The notes beneath the pieces were generated by a model. The model saw only the letters and a list, made by a program, of their open reading frames with translations, was not told the DNA's origin and made no database searches. Below, in pieces: positions 12,001 through 49,354 of a DNA stretch of 64,000 nucleotides. The stretch is taken from positions 576,001-640,000 of the forward strand of contig CM000431.1 in assembly GCA_000165345.1 (NCBI GenBank), given 5' to 3'. Position 1 is the first letter of the stretch; each line of letters begins with the position of its first letter. A program made the position numbers and the translations under genes.

Positions 12001-15000
12001 GATACAGTATTTAGTAATAGTAGAATTTACCATCATGCATCTATTTCAAACTCTAGAATACTTAGCAAGGATGAAGTAGATAAACAATGTTTCCCAAATT
12101 TAGTGGATTATTTAGAAAAGTATTCATCAAAAGATACAATGGAAGTCCCCATTGACAATATTTACAAAATGATGAATGAAATTGGTCTACAATATCAAAA
12201 AAATTATCAATGCCTTAAAACTGTAAAAGTAAAAATTGATAATAGCAACGATGAAAAAAAAATAAAGAGTTCAGGAAGCAATCAGATAAATGAGGTATTC
12301 TGCTATGTTAAGAGGCCAATAAGTGATTTTGACCTAACTGAGCTTAGGATTCACCCTGGAATGCTTGATTCAGTATTTCAAGCATCCTCAGTTTTGTTTG
12401 CCTCTGATGAGTTATTAGAGGGCAAAGATACGACAAAAAATAAGAGAGGACATGTTGCAATGGCTCCAATTGGATTCACTAAGTGTTTTTATGGAAGAAT
12501 ACAACATAATTCTGATGTTTGGGGTCTAGTGAAATTAAATCGATTTGAAAAAAAAGGAAATATAGCATTTATTGATGTAACTTTGTGGGATAGCAAAACA
12601 AATATTTTGGCAGCGCATTTCCAAGATTTAATTTTAAAAGGATTTTCGAACGCAGCATCGTTACTGTCCCAAGAAGTCAGAATTCCAAACCAGTTTTTGT
12701 GGAGAACTTATAATAAAAAGATAGTAGATAGAACTAATTATATTGAAAATAGCAGTACATTTGAACAAGAAAATAAAGAAGATCAAGATAAAGAGTTCAA
12801 CAGTGAAGACTCCGATCATGATAACCAAATCCAAAAGATTCTTATCTTTGGAATACCAACTGTAATTAAGGAATTGATTTGTAGTAAAATGGACAATAAA
12901 TACAAAAAGATTTCAACCACATTTATTTGTTTAGAAGAAGATCTAACGATTGACCTGATTGATCAGAAAATACAAGAAGAAAACTGGTCTGCTATGTTTT
13001 ATTTAGGTGGTTTAATGGATAATCTCTCAAGTAAGCAAGTTATGGGCGATATTTTAAAAATATCGCAGGTAATTTCAACTATTTCTGTATCTATTACAAC
13101 CGCACCATTTGTTTGTTTAACTTCATTTAATGATTGCAAAGAAGATGGGAACATTCCTAGACATTCAGGAATTAAAGGTTTTGTGAAAACAGCTAGAGTT
13201 GAACTTGAAAATGTCATAGGAAAATCAATAAACATTTCTCATATTGAGTGCAATTCGAGTTTGGTAAACGATCCAGAAACTCTTATGAGGACAATAAGTT
13301 ACATAGCCTCAATATATGAAGGAAAGATTGAAGAGGAAATTACTTTGGAAAGAGATTTAACTATATCTGAAAGTGGAATTTATGCCCCCAGATTAGAAAG
13401 TATTAATTTCCCTGTTTTTGGTGCAATTAAATTAACAATGTCATCTAGGGGAGCAATTGGAAACCTTAAATTCAAGCCACAACCACAATCTGAAAGAGTA
13501 AATCCACCTGCAAATACTGTTGAAATTAGAGTAAGGTCAATCGGACTTAACTTTAGAGACGTATTAAATGTTATGGGATTGTATCCCGGTGACCCTGGAC
13601 CTCCCGGCGGTGATTGTTCTGGTACTGTTGTCGCTGTTGGTGAAGGCGTTAAGCATATTAAAGTTGGTGATAATGTATTTGGAATTGCTCCTGGATGCTT
13701 AAAAACTTATGTTATCACTGATTCAAATTTGTTATGCAAAATTCCAAAAGGATTTACCTTCGAACAAGCTGCTGCGTTACCAGTTGTTGCAACTACAGTT
13801 GAATATTCTCTTAGAGATATTGCGAATATTAAAAAAGGAGATATTGTTCTAGTTCATGCAGTTACTGGTGGCGTAGGATTAATGGTTGTTCAATATTGCA
13901 AAGCAATTGGTGCTAAAGTATACGGCACAGCTGGAAGCGAATCTAAAGTTGAATATGCACTTTCTAATGGTGTTGAGAGGGTAAGCAGCTCAAGAAATGC
14001 TGATAAATTTAAAGAGGACATGAAAGATTTAGAGGGAAAAGTTGATATTGTAATCAATTCATTGATCGAAGACTTTATTCCAAATTCTTTGAATTTATTG
14101 AAAAAAGGTGGTTGTTTTGTTGAATTAGGAAAAAGAGGAATATGGACAGAAGAAGAGATGAAAGAAAAGAGACCTGATATTAAGTATAAATGTGTTGCTG
14201 TTGATGTAATGATGGAGGAAGATCCTTCTTGGTTTGGAGGAATGCTAACAAGAATAAAAAATTTGGTAGAAGAAGGAATAATCGAGTCATTACCATTGAA
14301 GGTGTATGATATGAGAGGTTCAGATGAGAATGGAATAGATGCATTCAGATATATGCAAAGAGCGCAACATATAGGAAAGGTTATCATCAAAATTCCAACT
14401 CCTTTCAAATATTTAGAATTGGATACGGAAAATCATAAGTTAAACAACGTTGGTTCTGAAAAAGAAGATAGACACAACAATGAATATGGCATTCATGTGA
14501 TTACTGGAGGATTAGGAGGAATTGGAAGGATTATTATCAAGTGGATGTTAGAAGAAGGAGTTAGAAAGATTGCAATTTTATCAAGAAGTGCTAATAATGA
14601 TTCTTTAAGAGATATCCCAGAAATAAAGGATTATTTGAATACAGATATTATTCAAATAGAATGCATAAAATGTGATGTTTCGATATTGTCACAGGTAGAG
14701 AGTGCATTTAGGGAGATTTTAGTTAAATTTGGAGAAACGAACCAAATACATGGAATATTCCATGCTGCAGGTATTCTGATGGATGGAGCAATTGCTTCTC
14801 AAACAATGGAAATGATGGAGTCAGTATATGCACCCAAGGTATATGGAGCATGGAATCTACATGAGTGTTGTGAAAAGTTTGAATTGAATAAAAATTTGAA
14901 GCACTTCGTGATGTTTTCTTCAGTTGCATCATTACTGGGTAATTTTGGTCAAACAAACTACTCTGCAGCGAATTCTTGTTTAGATTCATTGGTTGAATAT

Positions 15001-18000
15001 AGAAGAAATAAAGGAATGTGCGGAACTAGTATACAATGGGGTCCCTGGATTGAACAAGGAATGGCAGCAAATCTTAAACAACATTTAGAGAAGGTTGGAA
15101 TGTATGGCATATCCAATGAATTGGGTATTCGTGTTTTGAACGACATTCTATGCTTTGTATCAAAAAGTAGCTCTGTTATTGGTTGTCAGTCACTGAAATG
15201 GGATACGTTTATGCGCCGTTACAATACGATACCAACATTTTTAAGTGAAGTCGATTACAGTTCTCAGGGTAGATCACAAGGTCGTGTTGACATAAGCAAG
15301 CTGTCTGACGAGGAATTGGTTGTTGTCATTGCTCAAGTTGCTCAACAGTGTGCTAGTTCTCCGACATTACCAAGCCCAGATACTGTTTTGTTAGATTTAG
15401 GATTGGATTCATTGGGAGCTGTTGAATTCAGGAATTCAGTACTTGAAATGACAGGAGTTAAATTGCCGCAGACACTTGTTTTTGAAAACCCTACAATATA
15501 TGCAATTTCTATGTATGTAAGGGATCAAAATTCAGGAAACTCTACAAAATCAGATTCTAAAAAACATTCCCAGACTTCAAACGAACAAGCAAAGATGACA
15601 ATTGAGCAGTGGCTTCTATCTTCACTCAAACAGTCAGAAAGGTATATTTTATATGCTGAAGCTTTTGAAAAAAAATACCAAACAATCAGTAATTTAATTA
15701 CTGAGACTGATATTATTAGTGCATTAGAAGAGTTGGGAGTTGAAAATAATCAGGATTATGATCTATTATATGTTTCTTGGAATGAATTAATTTCTTCTGA
15801 AGAGGAAAATAGTAAGAAGCAAAATGATAGCAATAGCAAAAAACTTGAACAGGAGTTAATATTCGATCCTATTGCGGATGTAGAAGAGATCAAAAATTCC
15901 ATGAAATTAGATTTGGATGGGATATCAACAACAACTGACCCATCAGAGTTCAAAACCGCACTTTTGACAGGTGTAACAGGATTTGTTGGTAGAATATTGC
16001 TCGTGAAACTAATTGAAGAGTTTAAGAATATGCAGATTGTTTGTCTTGTAAGAGCAAGCAGCTCTGAAAAAGGCTTAGAAAGAATAATTAATGTTTGTGA
16101 AGAGGCAGAAGTGTGGAATCCAACCTATGCTTCTAGGATTATTGTCGAATGTGGAAACTTCGAAGAGGAGTATTTAGGACTTTCAGAAGAGAGATATTAT
16201 GAATTATGTAAAGAAATCGACGTTGTTTATCATATTGGAGGTGATGTTAATCTATTAAGTAATTACAAGAGATTAAGAAAAACAAACACTCTTTCACTTG
16301 TTGGTATAATAAATTTTTGTACAACTATCAAGCTTAAGCACTTGCATTTCTCTTCTACACTTGGACAGTTTCCAGCATTTTTTGCGGTATTTACCAGGGA
16401 GTTTGAAAATGCAGTTGTTAAGGAAACAGAAGGGCCATCTACGAGAGAAATGAGCAGATTGTTTCCTCCTACAAGACAAGGGTATCCTTGGAGTAAGTGG
16501 GCAGCTGAACAAATATTAGAAACTGCTCATCAACAAGGACTTCCACTTTCAATTTACAGACTGCCAAATACATATATTGCATCAGATACAGGTTATACAA
16601 ACAAAACTGATTATGCAACAGCTTTATTGATCGCTTCAATTTTGGAGGGTATGTTCCCTATTGGTTCATCAACTGCGCCATTGACACCTGTTAATACAAT
16701 ATGTGAAATAATAATATCTGCATCTAAAAAGAAAGAAAGGAAGCATTGGAGATATAACTTATTAGACACAAGAATTTTAGGAAAAAAACATGTTGAAGCT
16801 TGGGCATCTCAATTAGGGCTAGGAAATTATAAAGGCGTTGCTATTGATGAATTCTTCAGTGCAATTAAAAGTAGAGGGCCAGAAAGCCCAATTTTCAAAT
16901 TTGTACCATTAATGCAATACTGGAGGCACTATTGGTTTGATAATACTGAAAGAACTCAACCTTTTCCAGTAGATACATCGAATGTTTCTGAAGATATGCC
17001 TGAAATTTCATGGCCACCGTTGGAGATTACTTTTCAAAACTCATTTTTATACTGCGCAAAAAGAGGTTATTTCCCATCAAACTCTTCTTCAATTTCCTTC
17101 ACTCCAATTAAATGTTACAGCGATGCTTTAAATGAAATTAAAGCAGAATTAAGTTTAAGAAATGTTAATTTCAACCAGAATAAGTATGATTTTATTTGCA
17201 GAAAAATGCAAAAAAATGCAGACTCGATTTACGATTCATTAAAAAAAGTTTCGCTCAATTTCTGTGCTAAATATTCTTACTACATACTTCTGAAGCAATC
17301 TATAGTAAATCAATATATTGTTCAAGAGTCCCTCAATGATTCAATTTTAGAAAAGTTTAAAATGATGGATTGCTACTTTATTACGGGAACATCGTTTGAG
17401 GAAATATTGGAGTTGAGAAGAGTAATCAGAAAACTACTAAATAATTATAATGAATTAAAATTTGTTGACATTGCTTGTCCTTATCTTCCAACGAAGAATT
17501 CAAGAAGACTTATTTTAGAACAACTAAAAATCGCAACATCTATTTTACCATTAAAAAGATTCGAAGCTGTGGATTTGGATGAAATATTGACAGACGACTC
17601 CATTTTGTTAGAAATGTTTATGTTTGCTCCGTTTACCTTACCATTGATATATGGAAAAGAGTATTTTGAAGAATACAAAAATAAAATTACAGGTTGTTCA
17701 GAGGTAATGGAAGCATATTCATCGTTTAAAAATTACATTATTCAAACTCTAATAAAGAATAATTACAATACTGAATATCCGATTATTTTTAGTTCTCCTT
17801 TCCATTTACCTTTTGTAAAAGAAATTTTACAGATTTTTGAGAACTCTAAAATTATTGTTGTTGATAATAAACCAGATAATTCGACCATTCAAGGGAAGTT
17901 GTCAATGGTAAAATCTTTAAAATCAAAATATACGAATCTAGATGTTAGCGAAGAAGAAAATTCAGAGGTATATTTGCTAGACATCCTTGAGGAAATGAAG

Positions 18001-39235: not shown

Positions 39236-41824
39236 ATGGCTAAAGGAACATTTCAATGTTTTGGTTTTTCTCCAAAGCTTTTGGAGTCAATAAAGATTAT
39301 AGGCTATTCTCTTCCAACTCCGATTCAGCGTAAATGTTTTCCGTCTATTTTAGCAGGTAGAGATGTGGTTGCTATGGCAAGAACAGGTTCTGGTAAAACT
39401 GCGGGTTTCGTATTGCCTATGATTGAACGATTGGGCTGCTCTCATTCGCAAATTGTTGGAATTAGGGGAGTTATATTGTCTCCAACTAGAGAGCTTGCAT
39501 TACAGACTTATCGTGTTGTGCGAAAGCTTGCCTGTAAAACGAATTTGGTTGTTTGCGCACTAACAGGTGGCTCATCGCTTGATAGACAGTTTGAATCATT
39601 ATCTGGAAATCCAGATATTGTAGTTGCAACTCCAGGAAGATTATTCCATCACATTATAGAAGCAGGGCTTTCATTAATAGCTGTCAAAATAATTGTTCTT
39701 GATGAGGCAGACCGACTATTTGAAATGGGATTAGCCAGCCAAATTGAGAAAATATTGGAGTCCATCCCAAAGAATAGGCAATGCGTATTAGTATCAGCTA
39801 CAATGCCTACAGCTCTTGCATCATTTTCTAAAGTTATGTTAAACGAGCCGGAAGTTATTCAAATTGATTCAGATTATATATTAAGTGAAACATTAAAGTT
39901 AACATTTCTCTTTGTTAGAGAGGATGAAAAGCTTGCATCCTTACTATACTTGCTTAGAAACACTATTCCTTCTCACGAAAGAGCTATTATTTTTTGCGCA
40001 ACTAAACATCATGTTGATTATATCGTAAAAATTCTTGAATCAAACAACATTATAGTTAGTTATATTTATGGAAATATGGATCAAGAGGCACGTACAATGC
40101 ATTTGAACACTTTTAGAAAGAATAAGAGTAGAGCGTTAATAGTAACTGACATTGCTGCAAGAGGCGTGGATATACCAATGATCAAATATGTCATAAATTT
40201 TGATTTTCCATTGAGCCCAAAATTATTTGTTCATAGGACTGGAAGAACAGCAAGGGCAGGACAACATGGCAGAGCATTTTCGCTTATTACTTCCAGAGAT
40301 TTACCATACACGATTGACCTTTGTCTGTTTCTTGGCCTTAAAATGACTACGTTAACAAGTAAACAGACTACAGATTCATCAAATTATAGCTTAAACACAG
40401 AAAATAGAGTTGAAGCTGGCATAAGAGACGATGATATTCATGAAGAAGGGATATCTTTTATTAAACCAGCTTCTTTAAATGATTTTCATGGAGAGTCAAG
40501 ATTAATTTTAGCTGGTTTCCCTGATCTTACACTGGAGATAGAATCTATTGAAAGAGTTCTTACTGAGAATTCTGAAATAGAGAGGTGTAGGAGGTCAATG
40601 GAATCTGCGTATTTATTGTACTTGAAAACCAGGACACCATCTTCAAAAGAAAGTTTAAAAAGATCACGGGAACTTTTAGAAAAGTGCGGAGGAGTATCAA
40701 AAATATTAATGTCTATTCATCCAGATTTAAATATAGATACCAATGAAACTAATTTAAATATCGTAACTTTTCAAAATCTCGGAGTTATCAGCGACCCTCT
40801 TTTGGACCATTTGAAATCATTTAGACCAACTGAGAACAAAACTCACAATAAGTATGGGTGCCTTAACCAAGCTACTGGAAAGATGGTTTTAAAGTCATCA
40901 ATCAAGATGAAAAAAATTAAAGATATGGGCAACGTTGTAAAATCAATTCTAAGTGAAGATAAATTTGCAATTGGCACCTCTATTTCTGAGAGTCAAAATG
41001 GTATTTCAGACGAAATATCTTCAAATAATAATATTTCACAGAATTTTGTGAATAAAAAAAGAAAGCCTAAGAAACAGTGTAATAGAGTTAAAGAATCAGA
41101 ACATTTCTTTATACCTTATAAAAATAGTGAAGGGGAAGTTTCTAGATCGACTGGATTACAATTAGAGTCATCAAGTTTTGATATTAATCCTGATGAAGAG
41201 GGCGAGATGAAAAGACAAAAGTGCGTTAGAAAATGGAACTCTAAAAGGAAAAGGTATGAGCTAATCGATATTTCTAAAAAAAATTCCATCAAAAAGTTTA
41301 ACGAAAGTGGTATTAAGGTTAAAGGAGAGCTAAAGTGTACGGGGCAATATAAGAAATGGAAGGCAAATACAAATTTAAAGATCCAGAATGTTGGTGAAAT
41401 CGAGGATACAGAACTTAATAAAACTATTCGTAATAATGGGTTTAAAGATAAATATAATACGAGCGATATTAACTCTTCATTTGACTATTCGAACGTACAT
41501 GATAAACATAAAGGGATCATTGAGGCTATAAGTAAAGGTATTAAGCTAACTCACAAACAGAAACGTATTGCAAGACGCATTGGAATAATCAAGGAAAAAA
41601 TTGTTAATAAAAGCAAAAGTTTGCAAAATGAAATAAGAACTCCGCAGCAGATTCTTAAAAAACGAGCAAATGACGTCAAACAAAGAATGAAAAATGATTT
41701 AGAATTTAGAAGAAAGCAGCTAGCAAAAAAAAATAAGGAGTTTGCAGAGAAGAATTTTAAAAAAGTTATTCAAAAGGGGAGACCGAACAGGAGTAAAGTT
41801 GTGCTAGTTGAAAGGCGTAGATAG
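39236..41824 (+). CDS. DEAD-box ATP-dependent RNA helicase, DDX54/Dbp10 type
   Basis: Motif I AMARTGSGKTAGFVLPMIE, motif II DEADRLFEMG, SAT, HRTGRTARAG. C-terminal Dbp10-type extension (FIPYK..., KWNSKRKRY, YKKWKAN). Confidence 0.8.
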   Translation: MAKGTFQCFGFSPKLLESIKIIGYSLPTPIQRKCFPSILAGRDVVAMARTGSGKTAGFVLPMIERLGCSHSQIVGIRGVILSPTRELALQTYRVVRKLACKTNLVVCALTGGSSLDRQFESLSGNPDIVVATPGRLFHHIIEAGLSLIAVKIIVLDEADRLFEMGLASQIEKILESIPKNRQCVLVSATMPTALASFSKVMLNEPEVIQIDSDYILSETLKLTFLFVREDEKLASLLYLLRNTIPSHERAIIFCATKHHVDYIVKILESNNIIVSYIYGNMDQEARTMHLNTFRKNKSRALIVTDIAARGVDIPMIKYVINFDFPLSPKLFVHRTGRTARAGQHGRAFSLITSRDLPYTIDLCLFLGLKMTTLTSKQTTDSSNYSLNTENRVEAGIRDDDIHEEGISFIKPASLNDFHGESRLILAGFPDLTLEIESIERVLTENSEIERCRRSMESAYLLYLKTRTPSSKESLKRSRELLEKCGGVSKILMSIHPDLNIDTNETNLNIVTFQNLGVISDPLLDHLKSFRPTENKTHNKYGCLNQATGKMVLKSSIKMKKIKDMGNVVKSILSEDKFAIGTSISESQNGISDEISSNNNISQNFVNKKRKPKKQCNRVKESEHFFIPYKNSEGEVSRSTGLQLESSSFDINPDEEGEMKRQKCVRKWNSKRKRYELIDISKKNSIKKFNESGIKVKGELKCTGQYKKWKANTNLKIQNVGEIEDTELNKTIRNNGFKDKYNTSDINSSFDYSNVHDKHKGIIEAISKGIKLTHKQKRIARRIGIIKEKIVNKSKSLQNEIRTPQQILKKRANDVKQRMKNDLEFRRKQLAKKNKEFAEKNFKKVIQKGRPNRSKVVLVERRR

Positions 41825-41859
41825 TAATTTATACTTTTTTCTAGAGACTTAAATTAGTT

Positions 41860-42123
41860 TTAATTTATTCTTTTTTTAATTTCATTAAGGGATTCTTTAT
41901 TGAAAATTACTTTAATTTTCAATGAACAGCTTTCACATTGTAAAACTACGGAACTATCATTCCCTTTAGCTTCTGAATTGACTATCTCTTCAAGATAAGG
42001 AAGCGTTGTCCAGAATATGTCGCCGCATGAGCAATTATATGATAGAGTTCCCGAATAAATATCCAACCATTCCAACTCATCAATGTATATGACTTTCCAT
42101 ATAAATCCGTTTTTATCATTCAT
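41860..42123 (-). CDS. DPH3: Diphthamide biosynthesis protein 3 (Kti11/DPH3), CSL-type zinc finger
   Basis: YIDELEWLDIYSGTLSYNCSCGDIF...LQCESCSLKIKVIF matches the DPH3 CSL zinc finger. First ATG at 42123; the track starts at an upstream TTG. Confidence 0.75.
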   Translation of the reverse strand: MNDKNGFIWKVIYIDELEWLDIYSGTLSYNCSCGDIFWTTLPYLEEIVNSEAKGNDSSVVLQCESCSLKIKVIFNKESLNEIKKRIN

Positions 42124-42154
42124 GGAAAGGTTAGAATTAGCAATCAATGCAAAT

Positions 42155-43342
42155 CTAAATTGTTTTATTTAAATATTTTTCCGATATAACAGAAATTGGA
42201 TCAATCTTAATTAAAGACTCAAATACTTCGAACGGTTCTGTCGGCTCATAAAATTCTAAACTTGATTTTTTCGAATCACTATTAAATATCAGAGACAATG
42301 CAGAAATTGAAAGAAATGTATGTAGCGGATCTGAATGACCTTTGTTGTCGGTATTAAAAGGAGATTTTTGAAAACCGCCATAAATATTGTTTTGATGGCA
42401 TAGAATTCCATTTATCAATATTTTTAATATTTTTGAGTTAATGATTGATGAACAGTCAATATTTCTATTAATAGTAATATTTTTCACGATCTTAAGACTT
42501 GCAAATACCCACCATGAGTAGCATACATCACATTTTTTCCCAATGCGTCCATTAAAGCAATACGATTGATACTTAGTATTTTCGTGACTTTCAGAAGCGA
42601 TTATTCTCTTTAATAGCCACCTGTTTAGTCTGTTAAAATTAAACAACAAATCAATTGAGTTATTTTTCGTTATTTCTTTGATTATTGCTATCGATGAAAC
42701 TGCGCAGAAAGTATATCCTGCATGGGACTCGTCTTTATAGCGTTTACCGAATCCACCATCTTTGTTTTGCATATTAACCAATAGCTTTGTTAGTTCTGAA
42801 ATTCTAAAGACTGAATCTTGTTTTAAATCAGGATAGTTCGATAAATAGTATACAAGTAGTGTTGAATAAATAAACCTGACGTCAAATTGTCTTAAGCAGT
42901 TTTTGGAGTTATTGATATATATTTTTTCACCTCTCAAGGCAATTAGGCTTTTTATAAAAGCAGTTAATTCATATTTGTTATCTTCAGTAATTTTATTGTT
43001 TAATATTGTCTTTATTTGTATCCCACTAAGTATAGAAAGAATGGAAGGTCTAACAAAATCAAATGGATTAAGAGAATAAAATTTTAACTTAAAGTTATCT
43101 ATAAGTAATTCACGTTCACATTTTTTTAATAAATGTAAAAACTTATTTCTAGCATTATGGAGTTGATCGCAAATATTAAATTGAATTAAATCTGAGCAGC
43201 ACAAAACCCAATAAATACCATGTATAAATACTGAACTCAGCTGGATTTTAGATGAATCATAGCTGTTTATTGCATCATTTGTTACAAAGATTAGATATTT
43301 TTTATGTAGTTCCAGGTCGAATTTTCGTGCTGCATTATACAT
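42155..43342 (-). CDS. RABGGTB: Rab geranylgeranyltransferase (GGTase-II) beta subunit
   Basis: Prenyltransferase alpha-alpha toroid repeats: NKDGGFGKRYKDESHAGYTFCAV; DVCYSWWVFASLKIV is near-identical to human RABGGTB DVCYSWWVLASLKII. Confidence 0.8.
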   Translation of the reverse strand: MYNAARKFDLELHKKYLIFVTNDAINSYDSSKIQLSSVFIHGIYWVLCCSDLIQFNICDQLHNARNKFLHLLKKCERELLIDNFKLKFYSLNPFDFVRPSILSILSGIQIKTILNNKITEDNKYELTAFIKSLIALRGEKIYINNSKNCLRQFDVRFIYSTLLVYYLSNYPDLKQDSVFRISELTKLLVNMQNKDGGFGKRYKDESHAGYTFCAVSSIAIIKEITKNNSIDLLFNFNRLNRWLLKRIIASESHENTKYQSYCFNGRIGKKCDVCYSWWVFASLKIVKNITINRNIDCSSIINSKILKILINGILCHQNNIYGGFQKSPFNTDNKGHSDPLHTFLSISALSLIFNSDSKKSSLEFYEPTEPFEVFESLIKIDPISVISEKYLNKTI

Positions 43343-43409
43343 TATATCTTTTTTATTCCCAATGAATTATGCCGCCGCAACTATTCTAAATCACTTTGAA
43401 TTGAATAAT

Positions 43410-43912
43410 ATGAAAAAGACTCAAATATCAAACGGTAAGTAATTCAACTATCACTATATGTTATCATTCTGTCTCAGTTGCAAGTGGGATTTTGTCTAGA
43501 TCGGTTTTGAAAGGAGACCCTGTTTTTTCGCAAGAAGACTTGTCTAGCAGAAAAATAATTAAAAATGAAAGCAAAAAGCACAGTAAAAGAAACGTAAGTT
43601 ATCTTCATGATAAAAACTTCTAATAACTTATATAAATAGGCTAATGAAAATATTTTGAACACAATTTTTTTAAAACAAACCGCAAAGAATCAAAGGGAGA
43701 AGAGTTTGAAGCAGTTAGCGACGAAAGGAGTCGTAAAGTTCTTTAATATGATAGTAAACTATCAGGAAAATTCAAACATCAAAGCAAGTAAAGGCACTAG
43801 TAGTCCGAAAAATGCAGGACATTGCACAGAAACTAGGAAGGTAAAAAACGTGGAGTCCAACATTAAACCAAATAGATTCGGAACAATTGTTGGAATGCAT
43901 TCAGATAGGTAA
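43410..43912 (+). CDS. RRP15: RRP15-like rRNA-processing protein, 3 exons (43410..43434, 43478..43593, 43640..43912); introns 43 and 46 nt
   Basis: Only its last exon is in the ORF track (43655..43912). LKQLATKGVVKFFNMIVNYQENS matches human RRP15 [23 protein letters not shown]. Donors ACG|GTAAGT and AAC|GTAAGT; acceptors CTGTCTCAG| and TATAAATAG|. Start codon is 67 nt from the divergent RABGGTB start. Confidence 0.7.
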
Positions 43913-43936
43913 TGATGACGAAACTAAATTACTCTA

Positions 43937-46900
43937 CTAATGTTTAGCAATTCCTATTGCGTCTAAAACTATATCCCAACAGTAATTATCTATTATATTG
44001 TTAATGCATTGTTCAAACGAATATCTAACAGTATCTTCCCTCAAAGCAGTAAACTTTTCCAGATTAGTGAAAATAATTTTCAATTCATCCTGATCTATAT
44101 AGTAAGTCTCACTTTCTATTAATCTCGTGGCAAACTTCATGTATTGACTTGAAATGGTTATTATAGACTTGAGTGCATGCCATATATCTGTCACAATCTG
44201 TTCTTCATATGCTGAAAAGATTAATTGTAGATTTTCATTGGTATTGAGCAAGTAAGCATCAAAATAATTTCTAATCTTATAGAGTGGCTTCTTTCCAATT
44301 ATTACACATTTTGTAAGAGCTGATATTTCAATCAGTGTATTTGGTAGAAGAGGAGCATAAAATAGCTTCTTTGCAGCAGATATAGCCAGACTATTAATGG
44401 CAGATACATGATCTGAACGATGAAATAATAAATCTCCAGCTTTATATTTATTTTCTTGCAAGCGATTTATTAGATACATTGTGCATTTTAGTGATTGCAA
44501 TATGTTTCCGCTAGACTCTAATTTATAAATTATTGCCTCGAGCAACCAATTCAGCGGTATCCCCAATTTATCGACTAAGAACTTCCACTTTTCATCATTT
44601 AAGTAATCTTCGGGATTAGAATAATCGGGATTCTCTTGTATATTTCTCATAATAACGCAATTAAGAAGATAATAAAAGTCTGAGTTCATATTAGTATGCA
44701 TTATGATAAAAACTGCCCATTCCCACAAACCAAGAATTTCTAGTTCCTCTATAAGTATTAAGTTTAATTTATTTGTAGGTGTAATCTCATTACTATTGCA
44801 GATACTGTTGTGATAGAACGTGAGGGCCCTTGCAATTAGCCAATTAAATGAAGAGAATTTGATAGAGCCGAAGTTGTTCAATCGAAATAGCTCTACCTGT
44901 CTAGAATTTTCATCGCCAAAGAAGAATTTAATTATTTGAAATTGTATCTGCTCAAATACTTGTTTTTTGCCTACCTCTGATGGACTTATGTTAATAGGAT
45001 CATCTGAATCAATTAATTTTCCCAATTTTTGTGTATTATCAATTAAAGAGGCGTTTTTCATTTTTAGTAACCTTTCACCAAGCTTTGAATTTGTTGAATA
45101 ATTTGCAGATAGGAATACGTTATTTTGCCATTCGTATAAAAAACCATCCGCAGATGCATCTATATTAGATATTGTTTTGTATATTCTATTTGAATAAGAA
45201 GTTAGATCCGAAACAAGACCGATTTTTGACCACCACTGCATGTTTTCCATCATCTGCAAAATAGACGTTTTATTATTTCCAATGGACAAGAACAACGACG
45301 CAGTCCTTGGAATCGTCAAATATGATAAACTTGGGCCATTTCTAACTAGATCAAGTAAGTTTCCGTTTACAATATTATTCAAGAGAAGGCTAATTCTTTC
45401 TTCATGTAAACATTGAGAATTTTGTTTGTCATCACCAAACCTAATCACTGGAATGTCATTAATCACAATCTTCATCCACCAGGAAATCAGTTCTCTTAAA
45501 TTAGACTCGAAACGCTTTTCAGATGGATTATTCAAATTTTTAATTATTAATTCCATTATTCCACCAACCAAACCAAATGTTTGTTCAAAATATTTTAATC
45601 GCTCAAAATTTAAAGAATTAAACTTGAATCCAGATAAATGCGAATAAATTTCAACTTCATTTTTTGTTATGCTCCACAGGAGGAAAATAAGTTTTATTAT
45701 TGATTCGATTGAAACTCCAGAACAATTATTACTTGTTTTATTTCCTATTATCTCAAAATATAGCCTAAACCAGGCAGAAATCAACCTTCGGGAATAACCC
45801 AAATTGTTTATTGAATCTTTAGTTACGGATCCTGTCAGGTTATTTATTCTTAATAGAGTAATCGATGTGTTATAGTCGCTAACACCTTGAATATCTTTAC
45901 GAAATGATCTATGTGGTACTACAACAAAACTATTTGAGCCAATATACATACCACTTCTGAAACAGATTCCATTATAAGCAGATTTCTTTAAGCTATTGTC
46001 TTTTTCCACAATGCTTTTAATTTCTGAGTACAAACTAAAATTATATTGGCTCTTCATTACAAAAAAATGACCTTTATACTGTTCTTGTTTAGAACTTCGA
46101 AGAAAATGATTTTCCTGGTCGGAGACATTAAAATTAGTTTCTTTTGTCGCAAGAGCACTACAAGGTTCTTTAAAGTGAGATAAAGAATTATCTTCACTCA
46201 AAAAACCATATTTAGAAAAATGTGTGACCTCAAATTTCCATTCCCAGGTAATAGTATCAAGCGAAATAAATCTTGCACCCATTTGCTCTGTGTAAGACTT
46301 AATTTGTTTAACACGATTACTGTTAAATTCGTCTATCTCTTGTGGATCTTTAGAGGGTATAGCTCTCTTTGGTTTGCAATTCTTGAGTGTTATAATAGCT
46401 TTTTTATTTAATCCTTCGCCAATTGGAATAGAGGAGTCTCCATCACCATATACCGACACACATAGAGGTTCAATGGAAACAACTGAATCAAGATTAATCC
46501 CACGTAAATCAGTAACTCCAGGCCAAACGATCTCCCCAACTCCTTCTCTAACTATTTTGAAGTCTTCCACGACGGCAAGTCTCTCTTCTGAAAATGTTTT
46601 TAATAATTCTATTGATGGAATACAAAAGTAGTCATGCTTGGTGAGTATTGGGGTCAGGGATTCAATAACAAATTCTTTTTGCTTCCTTATATAGGACTTA
46701 ACTAGATCAGATGGGATGCTATCTATCAACTGATCTGGCCTTCTAGTAATAGGTCTAGGTGTTGTAAGACCAATGGAGCTACGTGCCTGACGTTCATTAC
46801 TAACAGCCGAAATAGAATTTACTGAGTTTCTATGTTGGTTTAAATATGGAGTTCTTGCTGCATTATTACTTTCATTAACTACCCTACCAATTGAAGTTCT

Positions 46901-49354
46901 GCAATCATCACTTTTGGAAATTTGCACATCCTGCGAAATACGTGAAATTGAATCGAGGTTTATCAATGGCTTTGAACTATCAGAACTTGACTTATTCTCA
47001 ATTTTTGAGGCTCTTGGGGAGAAAGTAGCTGAACTAGAATCATCTATTGCATCTTCAAATGTTTCGTCTAAAGGGACAAACTTTGTAGTATGAGATGTAG
47101 TAAATACCAAGGACCTAGTTTTGGAATTTGTAGGTGAATTTCCATTTTGTTCTGGAGACTGTACCGCGTCAAAGAACTGTTGTTGACGCTCAAGCAAGTT
47201 TAGGAATGCTGCAGGAGTCTGAGGATCCATAGTTTTCTCAATGCGCCTAACGGAAGTTAAAAGAGCAGTATTATGTCTCGCACTCTCGGTTGCAACCGCA
47301 GGAAGAGCCAGTTCTGATGAATTTGTAATTCTTTCGTGAGAAACGTGACTTAAGTTATCGAGTTGGTATCTATTAGAACGAGAAATAAATTGTGGTAGAG
47401 GTTTCCAGAGCCATAGTGACTTTCCTCTTTCATTCGAATCAGAATACTTTGAATTCTGAACAATTGGCTTAGGAAGCACACTATTGATTAATTTGTTTGA
47501 AGAAAGCCCATTGCCTAAAACAATTGACGAGTTTTGATTTGAAGGCTTTCCAGATTGCCCACCACCAAGTATATTCTGTAGCTGAATTGAGCTATTATTC
47601 AGTTGAGAATTTCCTGGTAAATTTGTTTGACCAATTGCAGAATTCGAAACCCCAGAAGTCAAAGATGACCATGATTGATTAGGAGGATTAACGCTTGAGA
47701 ATCCAAATGACTGAGATAAAGAAGTTGATTGGCCAAATAAGCTTGAACTGGATGCGTTTGCATTATTGTTATTCAGCGTATTCTGAGGTTGAGTGGAACT
47801 AAATAGACTATTTGGAGAGTTACTAAACAAGCCTGACGAGCTAGGCAGCGTTGAACCAAATAAGCTTGTAGATAAATTAGCTCCACTTGTACTACCAGAA
47901 CCTGCACCCAAATTAGAGCCACTTAATGTTTGATTACTACCAAATAATGGCTTCATTGAAAGCGAAGAATTTGACAAAGAAATTTGAGGTTGAGTATTTG
48001 AATTTGAATTAAAAAGAGTCAAGCTGGCACTATTTGAAGTTGTCGAACTCCCCCCAAACAAGGAACCAGAAGTCTTTAGAGAGCTATCTAGTGATCCTAA
48101 ATTGGATGGCTGCCCAAACAAATTACCACCGTTTAAACTGCTAATACTTGTACCTAAGTTGTTGCTGTTATTACTATTATTAATAATACCATTATTGCTA
48201 TTGCTAGAGAATAAACTGGGAGTGGAGAATAATCCTGAGTTTGAACCACTCGTTGAAGATTGAAGTGGAAATGAATTTGTATTGTTCGAAGCACCAAATA
48301 ATCCATTATTTGATACAAACTGAGTATTACCTATGTTTGATTGAGAGTTTTGAAGCCCCTGACCTAGAATTGAAGTTTGGCCCAAACCTGAGGACGAGCC
48401 ACTAGAACCGAAAAGAGAGTTTTGTGGTGTCGTTGATGATATAAAAGATGACTGAGGTTGTCCAAAAATTGAGTTTGAGATAGAAGGTCCTTGGGAGTTA
48501 GAAGCAAACCCGCCAGCGTTAGAAAATGAGCTATTCCCAAAACTATTGGTGCTTGTGGTAAAATTCGTATTGATGGATGATAAACTATTTGCAGGCCCTC
48601 TTTTTTCTTGATAATCTTCCCATCTAAGCTCTTCAACTGACTTTTTCTGATCAATGTCCTTCTGATATACAATAGACATGATTCTGGCATCGCTATCTCT
48701 ATCGACTACGGGTTGAAATGTAATCCCATTTGTGCCTTTCTTTGCCCCAAAAATATTCGAATTTGTTCCCATAGTGCCTCCGAAGGGCGAAGCTGAGGTG
48801 TTACCAAAAGTCTGAATGGGCATTGACCCAAAAAGACCACTATTGTTTTGTTGCCCAAAAAAGCTTGATGGGTTGCTTTGAGATGACTGGCTTCCAAAGC
48901 CTCCAGAAGTTCCAAATGAGTTTTGAAAAGAGCCAAAGCCTCCAGAGTTATTTGCCGAGCTAGAATTAAAAAACCCAGAGCTAGAACCTATCGTAGAAGA
49001 GGAACTTGAGCCAAACATAGTTGGTTGTGTAGAACTTATTTGCTGATTACCTCCAAACGTACTCATTGATTGGCCAAATAAGCCATTGGAAGATTGACCA
49101 AAAACTGAAGATTGCCCAGTATTTCCAAACCCGGAATTAGAAGAGCCAGTACTTCCAAATAGCCCAGGGCTCGCATTTCCTCCAAATAGGGAAGTTGATG
49201 AATTAAACAATCCCGTTGAAGCCGGTTGTACCGTATTAATATTTTGTGATACCCCTTGCTGGCCGATCCCAACTCCAAAAGAGTTGGATGTTCCAAATAA
49301 TCCTCCAGAAGACTGTTGGTTTTGGTTTGAACCAAACCCTCCTCCACCAAGCAT
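43937..49354 (-). CDS. Nup98-Nup96 nucleoporin precursor (FG/GLFG repeat N-terminus, autoproteolytic domain, Nup96-like alpha-solenoid)
   Basis: The N-terminal ~900 aa are GLFG/FG repeats (GLFGTSNSFG, GLFGSTG...). EVTHF|SKYGF matches the Nup98 autocleavage site HFS at about nt 46213-46218. Long helical C-terminal part. Confidence 0.8.
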   Translation of the reverse strand: MLGGGGFGSNQNQQSSGGLFGTSNSFGVGIGQQGVSQNINTVQPASTGLFNSSTSLFGGNASPGLFGSTGSSNSGFGNTGQSSVFGQSSNGLFGQSMSTFGGNQQISSTQPTMFGSSSSSTIGSSSGFFNSSSANNSGGFGSFQNSFGTSGGFGSQSSQSNPSSFFGQQNNSGLFGSMPIQTFGNTSASPFGGTMGTNSNIFGAKKGTNGITFQPVVDRDSDARIMSIVYQKDIDQKKSVEELRWEDYQEKRGPANSLSSINTNFTTSTNSFGNSSFSNAGGFASNSQGPSISNSIFGQPQSSFISSTTPQNSLFGSSGSSSGLGQTSILGQGLQNSQSNIGNTQFVSNNGLFGASNNTNSFPLQSSTSGSNSGLFSTPSLFSSNSNNGIINNSNNSNNLGTSISSLNGGNLFGQPSNLGSLDSSLKTSGSLFGGSSTTSNSASLTLFNSNSNTQPQISLSNSSLSMKPLFGSNQTLSGSNLGAGSGSTSGANLSTSLFGSTLPSSSGLFSNSPNSLFSSTQPQNTLNNNNANASSSSLFGQSTSLSQSFGFSSVNPPNQSWSSLTSGVSNSAIGQTNLPGNSQLNNSSIQLQNILGGGQSGKPSNQNSSIVLGNGLSSNKLINSVLPKPIVQNSKYSDSNERGKSLWLWKPLPQFISRSNRYQLDNLSHVSHERITNSSELALPAVATESARHNTALLTSVRRIEKTMDPQTPAAFLNLLERQQQFFDAVQSPEQNGNSPTNSKTRSLVFTTSHTTKFVPLDETFEDAIDDSSSATFSPRASKIENKSSSDSSKPLINLDSISRISQDVQISKSDDCRTSIGRVVNESNNAARTPYLNQHRNSVNSISAVSNERQARSSIGLTTPRPITRRPDQLIDSIPSDLVKSYIRKQKEFVIESLTPILTKHDYFCIPSIELLKTFSEERLAVVEDFKIVREGVGEIVWPGVTDLRGINLDSVVSIEPLCVSVYGDGDSSIPIGEGLNKKAIITLKNCKPKRAIPSKDPQEIDEFNSNRVKQIKSYTEQMGARFISLDTITWEWKFEVTHFSKYGFLSEDNSLSHFKEPCSALATKETNFNVSDQENHFLRSSKQEQYKGHFFVMKSQYNFSLYSEIKSIVEKDNSLKKSAYNGICFRSGMYIGSNSFVVVPHRSFRKDIQGVSDYNTSITLLRINNLTGSVTKDSINNLGYSRRLISAWFRLYFEIIGNKTSNNCSGVSIESIIKLIFLLWSITKNEVEIYSHLSGFKFNSLNFERLKYFEQTFGLVGGIMELIIKNLNNPSEKRFESNLRELISWWMKIVINDIPVIRFGDDKQNSQCLHEERISLLLNNIVNGNLLDLVRNGPSLSYLTIPRTASLFLSIGNNKTSILQMMENMQWWSKIGLVSDLTSYSNRIYKTISNIDASADGFLYEWQNNVFLSANYSTNSKLGERLLKMKNASLIDNTQKLGKLIDSDDPINISPSEVGKKQVFEQIQFQIIKFFFGDENSRQVELFRLNNFGSIKFSSFNWLIARALTFYHNSICNSNEITPTNKLNLILIEELEILGLWEWAVFIIMHTNMNSDFYYLLNCVIMRNIQENPDYSNPEDYLNDEKWKFLVDKLGIPLNWLLEAIIYKLESSGNILQSLKCTMYLINRLQENKYKAGDLLFHRSDHVSAINSLAISAAKKLFYAPLLPNTLIEISALTKCVIIGKKPLYKIRNYFDAYLLNTNENLQLIFSAYEEQIVTDIWHALKSIITISSQYMKFATRLIESETYYIDQDELKIIFTNLEKFTALREDTVRYSFEQCINNIIDNYCWDIVLDAIGIAKH

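What the first reader, a model, noticed from the sequence alone, without database searches (positions are those of the whole stretch)
43410..43912. RRP15-like gene packed into the 594-bp gap between RABGGTB and Nup98-96, with 43- and 46-nt introns
Only its last exon appears as a track ORF. Adding an 8-codon first exon (MKKTQISN) and a 38-codon second exon via GTAAGT donors gives a Lys-rich protein with the conserved RRP15 block LATKGVVKFFN. Its ATG is 67 nt from the divergently transcribed RABGGTB ATG and its stop is 24 nt from the convergent Nup98-96 stop. This shows how tightly genes are packed here.
Basis: partly seen in the sequence, partly recalled or inferred. Interest (0 to 1): 0.5.

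Follow-up and report, generated by a model that had tools for sequence, protein, structure and literature searches.

The report
Known three-exon RRP15 gene, Cryptosporidium parvum

Summary
Exons 43410-43434, 43478-43593 and 43640-43912 (+) are joined by removing a 43-nt and a 46-nt GTAAGT...AG intron. The product is a 137-aa, Lys-rich, basic protein. It passes Pfam's Rrp15p gathering score (38.9 bits against 27). Its best matches among solved structures are human and Chaetomium RRP15 in pre-60S particles.

The exact 137-aa sequence is already in GenBank and UniProt as C. parvum Rrp15p (QOY42587.1, WKS76982.1, WRK31472.1, KAL5369587.1, F0X561). The 2004 annotation appears to have missed the gene. 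A chromosome-3 gene with this Pfam domain was added as 'cgd3_new_08' in the 2015 re-annotation.

Five other Cryptosporidium genomes, including C. muris, keep the same gene order and both introns at the same position and phase. Intron lengths differ by amounts that are not multiples of three.

The 67-nt ATG-to-ATG and 24-nt stop-to-stop spacings are real and are kept in the intestinal species. Stop-to-stop gaps of 11-46 nt are common in this window. The 67-nt divergent gap is the smallest of eight.

Verdict: interpretation supported, already known, low interest.

The parts
43410..43434 (+). RRP15 exon 1: ATG plus 7 codons plus the first base of a split Val codon (MKKTQISN|V)
   Evidence: The N-terminus M..IS.VA..IL is conserved in all six Cryptosporidium orthologues. 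A at -3 of the ATG is read directly from the sequence.
43435..43477 (+). Intron 1, 43 nt, GTAAGT...CAG, phase 1
   Evidence: An intron sits at the same position and phase in six species, with lengths 43, 43, 44, 42, 49 and 65 nt.
43478..43593 (+). RRP15 exon 2, 116 nt (residues 9-47)
   Evidence: Adding it raises the Pfam score from 35.9 to 40.4 bits and extends profile coverage from positions 74-129 to 42-129. D22, P23 and F25 are invariant.
43594..43639 (+). Intron 2, 46 nt, GTAAGT...TAG, phase 0, 19.6% G+C, with TAA TAA in the exon-2 frame
   Evidence: An intron sits at the same position and phase in the other species, with lengths 46, 48, 49, 48 and 92 nt.
43640..43912 (+). RRP15 exon 3 (residues 48-137 plus TAA stop); the only part seen as an ORF of 60 aa or more
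   Evidence: On its own it scores 35.7-35.9 bits against PF07890.
43715..43747 (+). Codons for LATKGVVKFFN, the conserved RRP15 core, inside a predicted long helix (residues 63-86)
   Evidence: A74, T75, G77, V78, V79, K80 and N83 are invariant across the genus. The block aligns to human RRP15 '[11 protein letters not shown]' (8fkp_NG) and Chaetomium Rrp15 'IAQRGVVKLFN' (8i9r_Ch). The helix comes from the AlphaFold2 model, where these residues average pLDDT 67-79.
43343..43409 (.). 67-nt divergent spacer between the RabGGTB ATG and the RRP15 ATG; presumed shared bidirectional promoter and 5' UTRs
   Evidence: The spacer is 66-72 nt in four other intestinal species. It is the smallest of eight divergent ATG-ATG gaps in the window; the others are 242-1729 nt.
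43372..43380 (.). CCGCCGCAA, the only conserved block in the spacer (CCGCC invariant in five species); candidate E2F-like element
   Evidence: One search gives the alignment. The motif is not over-represented in the window: 4 hits at up to 1 mismatch against 1.8 expected. The resemblance to published C. parvum E2F-like motifs (GGCGGG, [C/G]GCGC[G/C]; PMC3734150) is an inference.
43362..43364 (+). Alternative in-frame upstream ATG, which would give a 153-aa product
   Evidence: This start is used in the C. hominis UdeA01 model CUV05121.1. It is not conserved in C. ubiquitum, L004 or L005.
43913..43936 (.). 24-nt spacer between the convergent RRP15 and Nup98-96 stop codons; the two 3' UTRs must overlap the opposite gene
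   Evidence: The spacer is 18, 17, 23, 1 and 69 nt in the other species. The overlap of the transcripts is inferred.
42155..43342 (-). Flanking gene: Rab geranylgeranyltransferase beta subunit (395 aa)
   Evidence: PF00432 at 155 bits. The product is identical to EAK89080.1 / QOY42586.1.
43937..49354 (-). Flanking gene: Nup98-96 FG nucleoporin (1805 aa)
   Evidence: PF04096 at 127 bits and PF12110 at 45 bits. The product is identical to EAK89079.1 / QOY42588.1.

Best explanation
The window is Cryptosporidium parvum chromosome 3, and 43410-43912 (+) is the single-copy orthologue of the ribosome-biogenesis factor RRP15. Two very short U2-type GT-AG introns (43 and 46 nt) are removed to give a 414-nt CDS and a 137-aa basic protein.

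By homology, the protein is expected to act in the nucleolus as the RRP15 subunit of the Ssf1(PPAN)-Rrp15-Rrp14(SURF6) module. That module binds early pre-60S particles, holds rRNA root helices in an immature arrangement, and is released after H61 is remodelled by Dbp10/DDX54. The central helix carrying E-K-x-L-K-x-x-A-T-K-G-V-V-K-F-F-N is the likely docking element.

The gene is presumably transcribed from a 67-nt bidirectional promoter shared with RabGGTB. Its 3' end must run into the convergent Nup98-96 gene.

Shown here: the gene structure, family membership, identity to the deposited protein, and conservation of introns and gene order. Inferred: the molecular role, the promoter sharing and the transcript overlap.
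For: The splice model is exact and is needed to keep a reading frame open.

Pfam Rrp15p scores 38.9 bits against a gathering score of 27. Four of the five other Cryptosporidium orthologues tested also pass; GCA_014529505.1 falls just short at 23.9 bits.

The best hits in the PDB are RRP15 chains of pre-60S structures: human 8fkp_NG (E 0.007 with the single sequence, 0.0013 with the genus profile) and Chaetomium 8i9r_Ch. Both align over the ATKGVVKFFN core.

The exact product is already deposited as C. parvum Rrp15p under four GenBank accessions and UniProt F0X561. C. hominis, C. tyzzeri and C. meleagridis hold 137-aa members of the same 90%-identity cluster.

Isaza et al. 2015 list 'PF07890 Rrp15p - cgd3_new_08' among the Pfam domains gained in their re-annotation. 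New models there required cDNA or RNA-seq support. Baptista et al. 2022 state that the introns of the CPATCC annotation are 100% RNA-seq supported. QOY42587.1 lies between CPATCC_001235 and CPATCC_001237.

Gene order prenyltransferase / RRP15 / Nup98-96 is the same in C. tyzzeri, C. ubiquitum, C. muris and two further assemblies. Both introns keep their position and phase in all six species. Their lengths vary by non-multiples of three (42-65 and 46-92 nt), and every model restores one open frame only after splicing.

Substitutions between C. parvum and C. ubiquitum fall 22, 30 and 57 on codon positions 1, 2 and 3.

The role of RRP15 is taken from bioRxiv 10.1101/2023.03.14.532478 and 10.1101/2023.11.01.565222.
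Against: Similarity to RRP15 outside the genus is weak. A single-sequence scan of 1.84 billion representatives found 6 proteins with E up to 0.001; the five whose source was checked are Cryptosporidium, and P0023 and P0024 were not traced. PDB E-values are only 1e-3 to 6e-2.

The protein is about half the length of yeast, human or Chaetomium RRP15. The AlphaFold2 model is poor (pLDDT 58.6, pTM 0.23), so there is no structural confirmation.

I did not check whether C. parvum has Ssf1/PPAN and Rrp14/SURF6 partners. The start codon is not settled: an in-frame ATG at 43362 would add 16 residues.
Confidence: 0.95

Rival explanations
1. The gene is real but translation starts at the upstream in-frame ATG at 43362, giving a 153-aa protein (MNYAAATILNHFELNN plus the 137 aa). 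The C. hominis UdeA01 gene is modelled this way.
For: The ATG at 43362 is in frame with no intervening stop. CUV05121.1 (153 aa) uses the homologous start. With only 67 nt between the divergent ATGs, a transcription start upstream of 43362 is possible, and a scanning ribosome would then reach that ATG first.
Against: That ATG and its frame are lost in C. ubiquitum, GCA_027243965.1 and GCA_014529505.1, where indels of 1-2 nt occur in the spacer. All distant orthologues start at the MKKTQISN-equivalent Met. Six of the seven cluster members, including all four C. parvum records, are not the 153-aa form. The base at -3 is C at 43362 and A at 43410.
Confidence: 0.1
2. There is no splicing and only the exon-3 ORF is expressed, as a truncated RRP15-like peptide or a decaying remnant. 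Exons 1 and 2 would be a coincidental construction.
For: The exon-3 ORF alone passes the Pfam threshold (35.7 bits). Exon 2 adds only about 4.5 bits.
Against: The exon-3 ORF has no ATG before Met84 (its listed start is TTG), so the conserved core would not be translated. Residues of exons 1 and 2 are conserved across the genus (M1, S7, V9, A10, I13, L14, D22, P23, F25 invariant). GTAAGT donors, intron positions and phases are conserved out to C. muris. Independent annotations give the same three-exon product.
Confidence: 0.02
3. The 594-nt stretch is only intergenic DNA (promoter and UTRs of RabGGTB and Nup98-96), as the 2004 annotation implied, and the RRP15 similarity is chance.
For: The flanking proteins carry consecutive accessions in the 2004 record (EAK89079.1 and EAK89080.1) and no EAK record exists for the RRP15 product. 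A gap of 594 nt matches the genome's mean intergenic length of 552-589 bp (PMC4637869).
Against: The Pfam hit exceeds the curated threshold. Divergence is biased to the third codon position. Orthologues sit in the same place in six species. Later annotations based on expression evidence include the gene.
Confidence: 0.01

Closest known systems
Cryptosporidium parvum Rrp15p (GenBank QOY42587.1, WKS76982.1, WRK31472.1, KAL5369587.1 'CPHLJ_3g2355'; UniProt F0X561_CRYPV); probably 'cgd3_new_08' of Isaza et al. 2015
   Same: The 137-aa sequence is identical from first to last residue. The position between the RabGGT-beta and Nup98-96 genes is the same, because adjacent accessions QOY42586.1, QOY42587.1 and QOY42588.1 match the three window products.
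   Different: Nothing. This is the same gene. The link to 'cgd3_new_08' rests only on chromosome number and Pfam family; the paper's coordinates were not seen.
Human RRP15 (282 aa; PDB 8fkp/8fkq/8fkr/8fks chain NG) and Chaetomium Rrp15 (354 aa; 8i9r/8i9t chain Ch); yeast Rrp15p from general knowledge
   Same: All belong to Pfam family PF07890. They share the core motif E-x-x-L-x-x-x-A-[TQ]-[KR]-G-V-V-x-[LF]-F-N followed by a polar or basic tail, and all are basic and Lys-rich.
   Different: The Cryptosporidium protein is about half as long and consists almost entirely of the Pfam domain; the long N- and C-terminal extensions are missing. Sequence identity outside the core is low. The C-terminal NRFGxVVGMH motif is conserved only within the genus and lies outside the Pfam match (residues 13-117).
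Short spliceosomal introns and compact gene spacing of Cryptosporidium (Abrahamsen 2004; Isaza 2015; Baptista 2022)
   Same: The introns are GT-AG and AT-rich (30% and 20% G+C here, against a reported mean of 22%). The genome is about 75-77% coding and many promoters are bidirectional.
   Different: The 43- and 46-nt introns are about half the reported mean of 84-100 nt. The 67-nt and 24-nt spacers are roughly a tenth of the reported mean intergenic length of about 550-590 nt.

Membership tests
RRP15 / Rrp15p (Pfam PF07890) | Whole-protein score at or above Pfam's curated gathering score (27 bits) | tested here: met
   38.9 bits, E 1.2e-9, residues 13-117 on profile positions 22-129 of 140. 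Orthologues score 31-41 bits, except GCA_014529505.1 at 23.9 bits.
RRP15 / Rrp15p (Pfam PF07890) | Conserved core helix motif (E..L...AT[KR]GVV.[LF]FN) that aligns with RRP15 proteins of known structure | tested here: met
   The top PDB hits are RRP15 chains 8fkp_NG (human) and 8i9r_Ch (Chaetomium), aligned over this motif. The motif is invariant across the genus.
RRP15 / Rrp15p (Pfam PF07890) | Single-copy orthologue kept across related genomes | tested here: met
   One copy lies at the same position (prenyltransferase / RRP15 / Nup98-96) in six Cryptosporidium genomes. Whether a second copy exists elsewhere in the C. parvum genome could not be checked from a 64-kb window.
RRP15 / Rrp15p (Pfam PF07890) | Fold and contacts as in pre-60S structures (an extended protein bound to the Brix protein Ssf1/PPAN and to Rrp14/SURF6) | tested here: inconclusive
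   The AlphaFold2 model has mean pLDDT 58.6 and pTM 0.23. It shows one long helix (63-86) over the core motif and two short helices. This suits a partner-dependent extended factor but is too poor for a fold search, so none was run.
RRP15 / Rrp15p (Pfam PF07890) | Nucleolar location, association with early pre-60S particles, and a requirement for 27S pre-rRNA processing | not testable with these tools
   These need tagging, pull-down or depletion in C. parvum. The role is taken from yeast and human work.
RRP15 / Rrp15p (Pfam PF07890) | Partner proteins Ssf1/PPAN and Rrp14/SURF6 present in the same genome | not tested
U2-type GT-AG spliceosomal introns | GT...AG boundaries with a consensus donor | tested here: met
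   Both introns begin with GTAAGT and end with CAG or TAG. Across the six species the donors are GTAAGT, with GTATGT for intron 1 of C. muris.
U2-type GT-AG spliceosomal introns | Removal is needed to restore the reading frame | tested here: met
   Intron 1 changes the frame (43 nt). Intron 2 is 46 nt and holds TAA TAA in frame. All three unspliced forward frames are full of stops.
U2-type GT-AG spliceosomal introns | Position and phase conserved in orthologues, with length free to vary by non-multiples of three | tested here: met
   Intron 1 is phase 1 after codon 8 or 9, with lengths 43, 43, 44, 42, 49 and 65 nt. Intron 2 is phase 0 after codon 45-50, with lengths 46, 46, 48, 49, 48 and 92 nt.
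U2-type GT-AG spliceosomal introns | Spliced junctions seen in transcripts | not testable with these tools
   No read data are available here. Indirect support: the CPATCC annotation holding this exact product reports 100% RNA-seq support for its introns (PMC8744675), and the 2015 re-annotation required cDNA or RNA-seq support for new models (PMC4637869).

The most novel reading that the evidence does not exclude
The most novel reading still open concerns expression, not the gene. The five-gene block 39236-49354, with spacers of 35, 31, 67 and 24 nt, might be expressed through obligatorily overlapping transcripts. The 67-nt RabGGTB/RRP15 spacer, with a single conserved CCGCC (E2F-like) box, would be a minimal bidirectional promoter. 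The convergent RRP15 and Nup98-96 mRNAs would be natural antisense partners, and this could couple expression of a ribosome-biogenesis factor to that of a nucleoporin. A second possibility is that the 137-aa protein is a near-minimal RRP15 (the Pfam domain plus a genus-specific NRFGxVVGMH tail), which would define the smallest part needed for Ssf1/pre-60S binding.
Probability: 0.15. Interest if true: 0.3.

Novelty: already known. Interest (0 to 1): 0.08.

Why it matters
It matters little beyond quality control. The case shows that a careful reading of raw sequence can recover a small multi-exon gene that the first C. parvum annotation (2004) appears to have missed and later annotations based on expression evidence added.

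Three practical by-products follow:
- The C. ubiquitum public model XP_028875397.1 probably retains intron 2 by mistake.
- The C. hominis UdeA01 model uses an unconserved upstream ATG.
- The 67-nt divergent spacer with one conserved GC box is a compact candidate for testing bidirectional promoters in Cryptosporidium.

Tried and rejected
- Bacterial-type promoter and terminator scan of 43200-44200. The hit counts were at the level of shuffled sequence, and the models do not apply to a eukaryote.
- Rfam at gathering score and a tRNA scan over the whole window. Neither found anything, so no RNA gene hides in the introns or spacers.
- Literature search for 'cgd3_2355' found no papers. The locus name is only implied by the GenBank tag CPHLJ_3g2355.
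- Window-wide search for the spacer motif CCGCCGCAA at up to 1 mismatch: 4 hits against 1.8 expected, and 12 of 100 shuffles did as well. It is not enriched, so the E2F-like reading rests only on cross-species conservation.
- Single-sequence phmmer over 1.84 billion representative proteins gave 6 hits. The five traced or named are Cryptosporidium. It therefore added no independent confirmation of family membership, though it did supply the distant orthologues used for the intron comparison.
- Structure prediction gave a low-confidence model, so I ran no fold search; its matches would be meaningless.
- Minus-strand ORFs inside the gene (33-62 aa) were considered and dismissed. They have no homology support and lie antisense to a conserved coding frame.

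Full report
**Observation**

I read 43200-44100 and listed ORFs of 30 aa or more, then rebuilt the proposed gene by script. Every number in the finding holds.

| Part | Coordinates | Details |
|---|---|---|
| Exon 1 | 43410-43434 | ATG, MKKTQISN, plus the first base of a split Val codon |
| Intron 1 | 43435-43477 | 43 nt, GTAAGT...CAG, phase 1 |
| Exon 2 | 43478-43593 | 116 nt: 2 nt plus 38 codons |
| Intron 2 | 43594-43639 | 46 nt, GTAAGT...TAG, phase 0 |
| Exon 3 | 43640-43912 | TAA stop |

The spliced CDS is 414 nt and encodes 137 aa. Unspliced, all three forward frames are broken by many stops, and intron 2 carries TAA TAA in the exon-2 frame.

The space between the flanking ORFs (43343-43936) is 594 nt. 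The RRP15 ATG is 67 nt from the divergent ATG at 43342, and its stop is 24 nt from the convergent stop at 43937. At the default ORF threshold only exon 3 is visible, as an 85-aa ORF whose listed start is TTG. The product is Lys-rich (20 of 137 residues) with pI 10.4.

GTAAGT occurs 30 times on both strands of the window. Two copies in 594 nt of one strand has a chance probability of about 0.009, before counting that both lie exactly where the frame has to change.

**What it is**

The spliced product matches Pfam PF07890 (Rrp15p) at 38.9 bits, against a gathering score of 27 (E 1.2e-9). The match covers residues 13-117 on profile positions 22-129 of 140.

A search of the 5.8-billion-protein collection returned 'Rrp15p [Cryptosporidium tyzzeri]' at 96% identity and a C. 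ubiquitum protein at 59%. An exact-sequence look-up then showed the very same 137-aa sequence already deposited for C. parvum. The records are QOY42587.1, WKS76982.1, WRK31472.1, KAL5369587.1 ('CPHLJ_3g2355') and UniProt F0X561, named 'Rrp15p' in some of them. C. hominis and C. meleagridis hold 137-aa members of the same cluster.

Both neighbours are also exact matches to C. parvum proteins:
- The 395-aa ORF is EAK89080.1 / QOY42586.1, 'Geranylgeranyl transferase type-2 subunit beta'.
- The 1805-aa ORF is EAK89079.1 / QOY42588.1, an FG nucleoporin with the S59 autopeptidase and Nup96 domains.

**History of the annotation**

In the 2004 Iowa II record the two neighbours carry consecutive accessions (EAK89079 and EAK89080). 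No EAK record exists for the RRP15 product. The first annotation therefore appears to have treated the 594 nt as intergenic, which fits the genome's mean intergenic length of 552-589 bp (PMC4637869).

The supplement of Isaza et al. 2015 lists 'PF07890.7 Rrp15p - cgd3_new_08' among the Pfam domains gained in their re-annotation. New models there needed TopHat read support plus Cufflinks or MAKER evidence. I link that entry to this locus only by chromosome and family, because I did not see the paper's coordinates.

Baptista et al. 2022 state that the introns of their C. parvum IOWA-ATCC annotation are 100% supported by RNA-seq (PMC8744675). That annotation is the source of the QOY records. It is indirect.

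**Comparative test of the splice model**

I fetched the orthologous loci of five other genomes:
- C. tyzzeri (L002)
- C. ubiquitum (L001)
- C. muris RN66, GCA_000006515.1 (L003)
- GCA_027243965.1 (L004)
- GCA_014529505.1 (L005)

All have the order prenyltransferase (minus strand), RRP15 (plus strand), Nup98-96 (minus strand). A script then searched for the GT...AG intron sets that reproduce each deposited protein.

| Feature | Position and phase | Lengths (nt) |
|---|---|---|
| Intron 1 | phase 1, after codon 8 or 9 | 43, 43, 44, 42, 49, 65 |
| Intron 2 | phase 0, after codon 45-50 | 46, 46, 49, 48, 92, plus 48 in C. ubiquitum |

Intron lengths differ by amounts that are not multiples of three. 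In the C. parvum / C. ubiquitum alignment the only exon indel is 3 nt.

In C. ubiquitum the homologous GTAAGT...AAG segment of intron 2 happens to be in frame and free of stops. The public 152-aa model reads through it. Splicing it gives a 136-aa protein that aligns with the others.

Between C. parvum and C. ubiquitum, CDS mismatches fall 22, 30 and 57 on codon positions 1, 2 and 3.

Residues from exons 1 and 2 are invariant across six orthologues: M1, S7, V9, A10, I13, L14, D22, P23 and F25. These include residues on both sides of the exon 1/2 junction. Together these results establish the three-exon structure without transcripts.

**How far the family call depends on the splice model**

Exon 3 alone scores 35.7-35.9 bits. 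Adding exon 2 gives 40.4 bits and extends profile coverage from positions 74-129 to 42-129. The full protein scores 38.9 bits. The RRP15 identity would therefore have been visible from the last exon alone, and exons 1 and 2 are supported mainly by conservation.

**Relation to characterised RRP15 proteins**

Against all PDB chain sequences the only single-sequence hit is human RRP15 (8fkp_NG; E 0.007). It aligns 'EKSLKQLATKGVVKFFNMIVNYQEN' with '[25 protein letters not shown]'. A profile of six Cryptosporidium orthologues improves this to E 0.0013 and adds Chaetomium Rrp15 (8i9r_Ch; E 0.059). The next hits, CRIF1 at E about 0.1, are noise.

A full HMMER scan of 1.84 billion representatives with the single sequence found 6 relatives. 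The five I traced or found named are Cryptosporidium. The family evolves quickly and needs a profile to be seen.

AlphaFold2 with the 8-sequence alignment gave a poor model (pLDDT 58.6, pTM 0.23). It has one long helix at residues 63-86 over the conserved block and short helices at 8-14 and 126-132. I ran no fold search on it.

**Likely function (inferred from homology)**

In human and yeast nucleolar pre-60S particles, RRP15 is part of the SURF6(Rrp14)-SSF1(PPAN)-RRP15 module. The rRNA root helices are organised around this module. [quoted passage not shown] It is released when DDX54/Dbp10 remodels H61, after which the Noc2/Noc3/Spb1 set binds (bioRxiv 10.1101/2023.03.14.532478 and 10.1101/2023.11.01.565222).

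The Cryptosporidium protein is about half the length of its human (282 aa) or Chaetomium (354 aa) counterparts and is essentially the Pfam domain alone. It also has a genus-specific C-terminal NRFGxVVGMH motif.

**Packing**

A crude map of the large ORFs in the window shows convergent stop-to-stop gaps of 11, 35 and 46 nt elsewhere, so 24 nt is normal here. The 67-nt divergent ATG-to-ATG gap is the smallest of eight; the others are 242-1729 nt.

Both gaps are kept in the intestinal species:

| Genome | Divergent gap (nt) | Convergent gap (nt) |
|---|---|---|
| C. parvum (window) | 67 | 24 |
| C. tyzzeri | 67 | 18 |
| C. ubiquitum | 66 | 17 |
| GCA_027243965.1 | 67 | 23 |
| GCA_014529505.1 | 72 | 1 |
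| C. muris | about 1130, ORF-free | 69 |

C. muris also has longer introns.

The only block conserved across five species in the spacer is CCGCC, within TATGCCGCCGCAA at 43372-43380. It resembles the E2F-like motifs reported as the most abundant upstream elements in C. parvum (GGCGGG and [C/G]GCGC[G/C]; PMC3734150). More than half of the ATAC-seq regulatory peaks in C. parvum were annotated as bidirectional promoters (bioRxiv 10.1101/2025.01.17.633476). The motif is not enriched in this window, so this stays a lead.

With spacers this short, the 3' UTRs of RRP15 and Nup98-96 must overlap the opposite gene. About 10% of C. parvum genes are reported to have an antisense transcript (PMC12246861).

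**Open detail**

An in-frame ATG at 43362 would give a 153-aa product, and the C. hominis UdeA01 model uses it. It is not conserved outside the parvum/hominis/tyzzeri group and has C at -3, where the ATG at 43410 has A. I consider 43410 the start, at about 85-90%.

**Verdict**

The gene is already in the public annotations with the identical product, so nothing is new. Interest is low. The by-products are two probable annotation errors in sister species and a compact candidate bidirectional promoter.

Noticed in passing
window 43362-43409: An in-frame ATG lies 48 nt upstream of the accepted start and 19 nt from the RabGGTB ATG. It would add MNYAAATILNHFELNN, giving a 153-aa product. The C. hominis UdeA01 model CUV05121.1 uses it, but it is not conserved in C. 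ubiquitum, L004 or L005.
   Followed up: partly
L001:1686-1733 (C. ubiquitum, LRBP01000012.1): The public model XP_028875397.1/OII74204.1 (152 aa) reads through the homologue of intron 2 (48 nt, GTAAGT...AAG, in frame, no stop). All other species splice there. This is probably a mis-annotation; less likely, it is a real retained-intron isoform.
   Followed up: partly
window 43372-43380: CCGCCGCAA is the only block conserved in the 66-72-nt divergent spacer of five intestinal Cryptosporidium species (CCGCC invariant). It resembles E2F-type GC boxes described for C. parvum promoters. It is not over-represented in the window.
   Followed up: partly
window 39236-49354: Five genes in a row are separated by only 35, 31, 67 and 24 nt. 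The DPH3-like Zn_ribbon_CSL ORF (41860-42123, minus strand) starts 31 nt after the RabGGTB stop on the same strand. That makes the pair a candidate for the dicistronic transcripts recently reported in C. parvum.
   Followed up: no
L003:369-1500 and L003:1501-2143 (C. muris DS989732.1): In C. muris the spacer between prenyltransferase and RRP15 is about 1.1 kb with no ORF of 40 aa or more, and the two RRP15 introns are 65 and 92 nt. The extreme compaction is therefore a feature of the intestinal lineage and not of the whole genus.
   Followed up: partly
L005:2020-2022 (GCA_014529505.1): In this assembly the annotated RRP15 and Nup98-96 genes are separated by a single nucleotide between their convergent stop codons.
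   Followed up: no
window 43787-43909 (residues 97-137): The C-terminal motif IKPNRFGxVVGMH is conserved across Cryptosporidium RRP15 orthologues (R126 and F127 invariant) but lies outside the Pfam Rrp15p match. AlphaFold2 predicts a short helix at residues 126-132. Its function is unknown.
   Followed up: no
window 109-18138 (+): A single ORF of about 6000 aa occupies the first 18 kb of the window. I did not examine it.
   Followed up: no
window 1-64000: The 64-kb window has no tRNA genes and no Rfam family at gathering score.
   Followed up: yes
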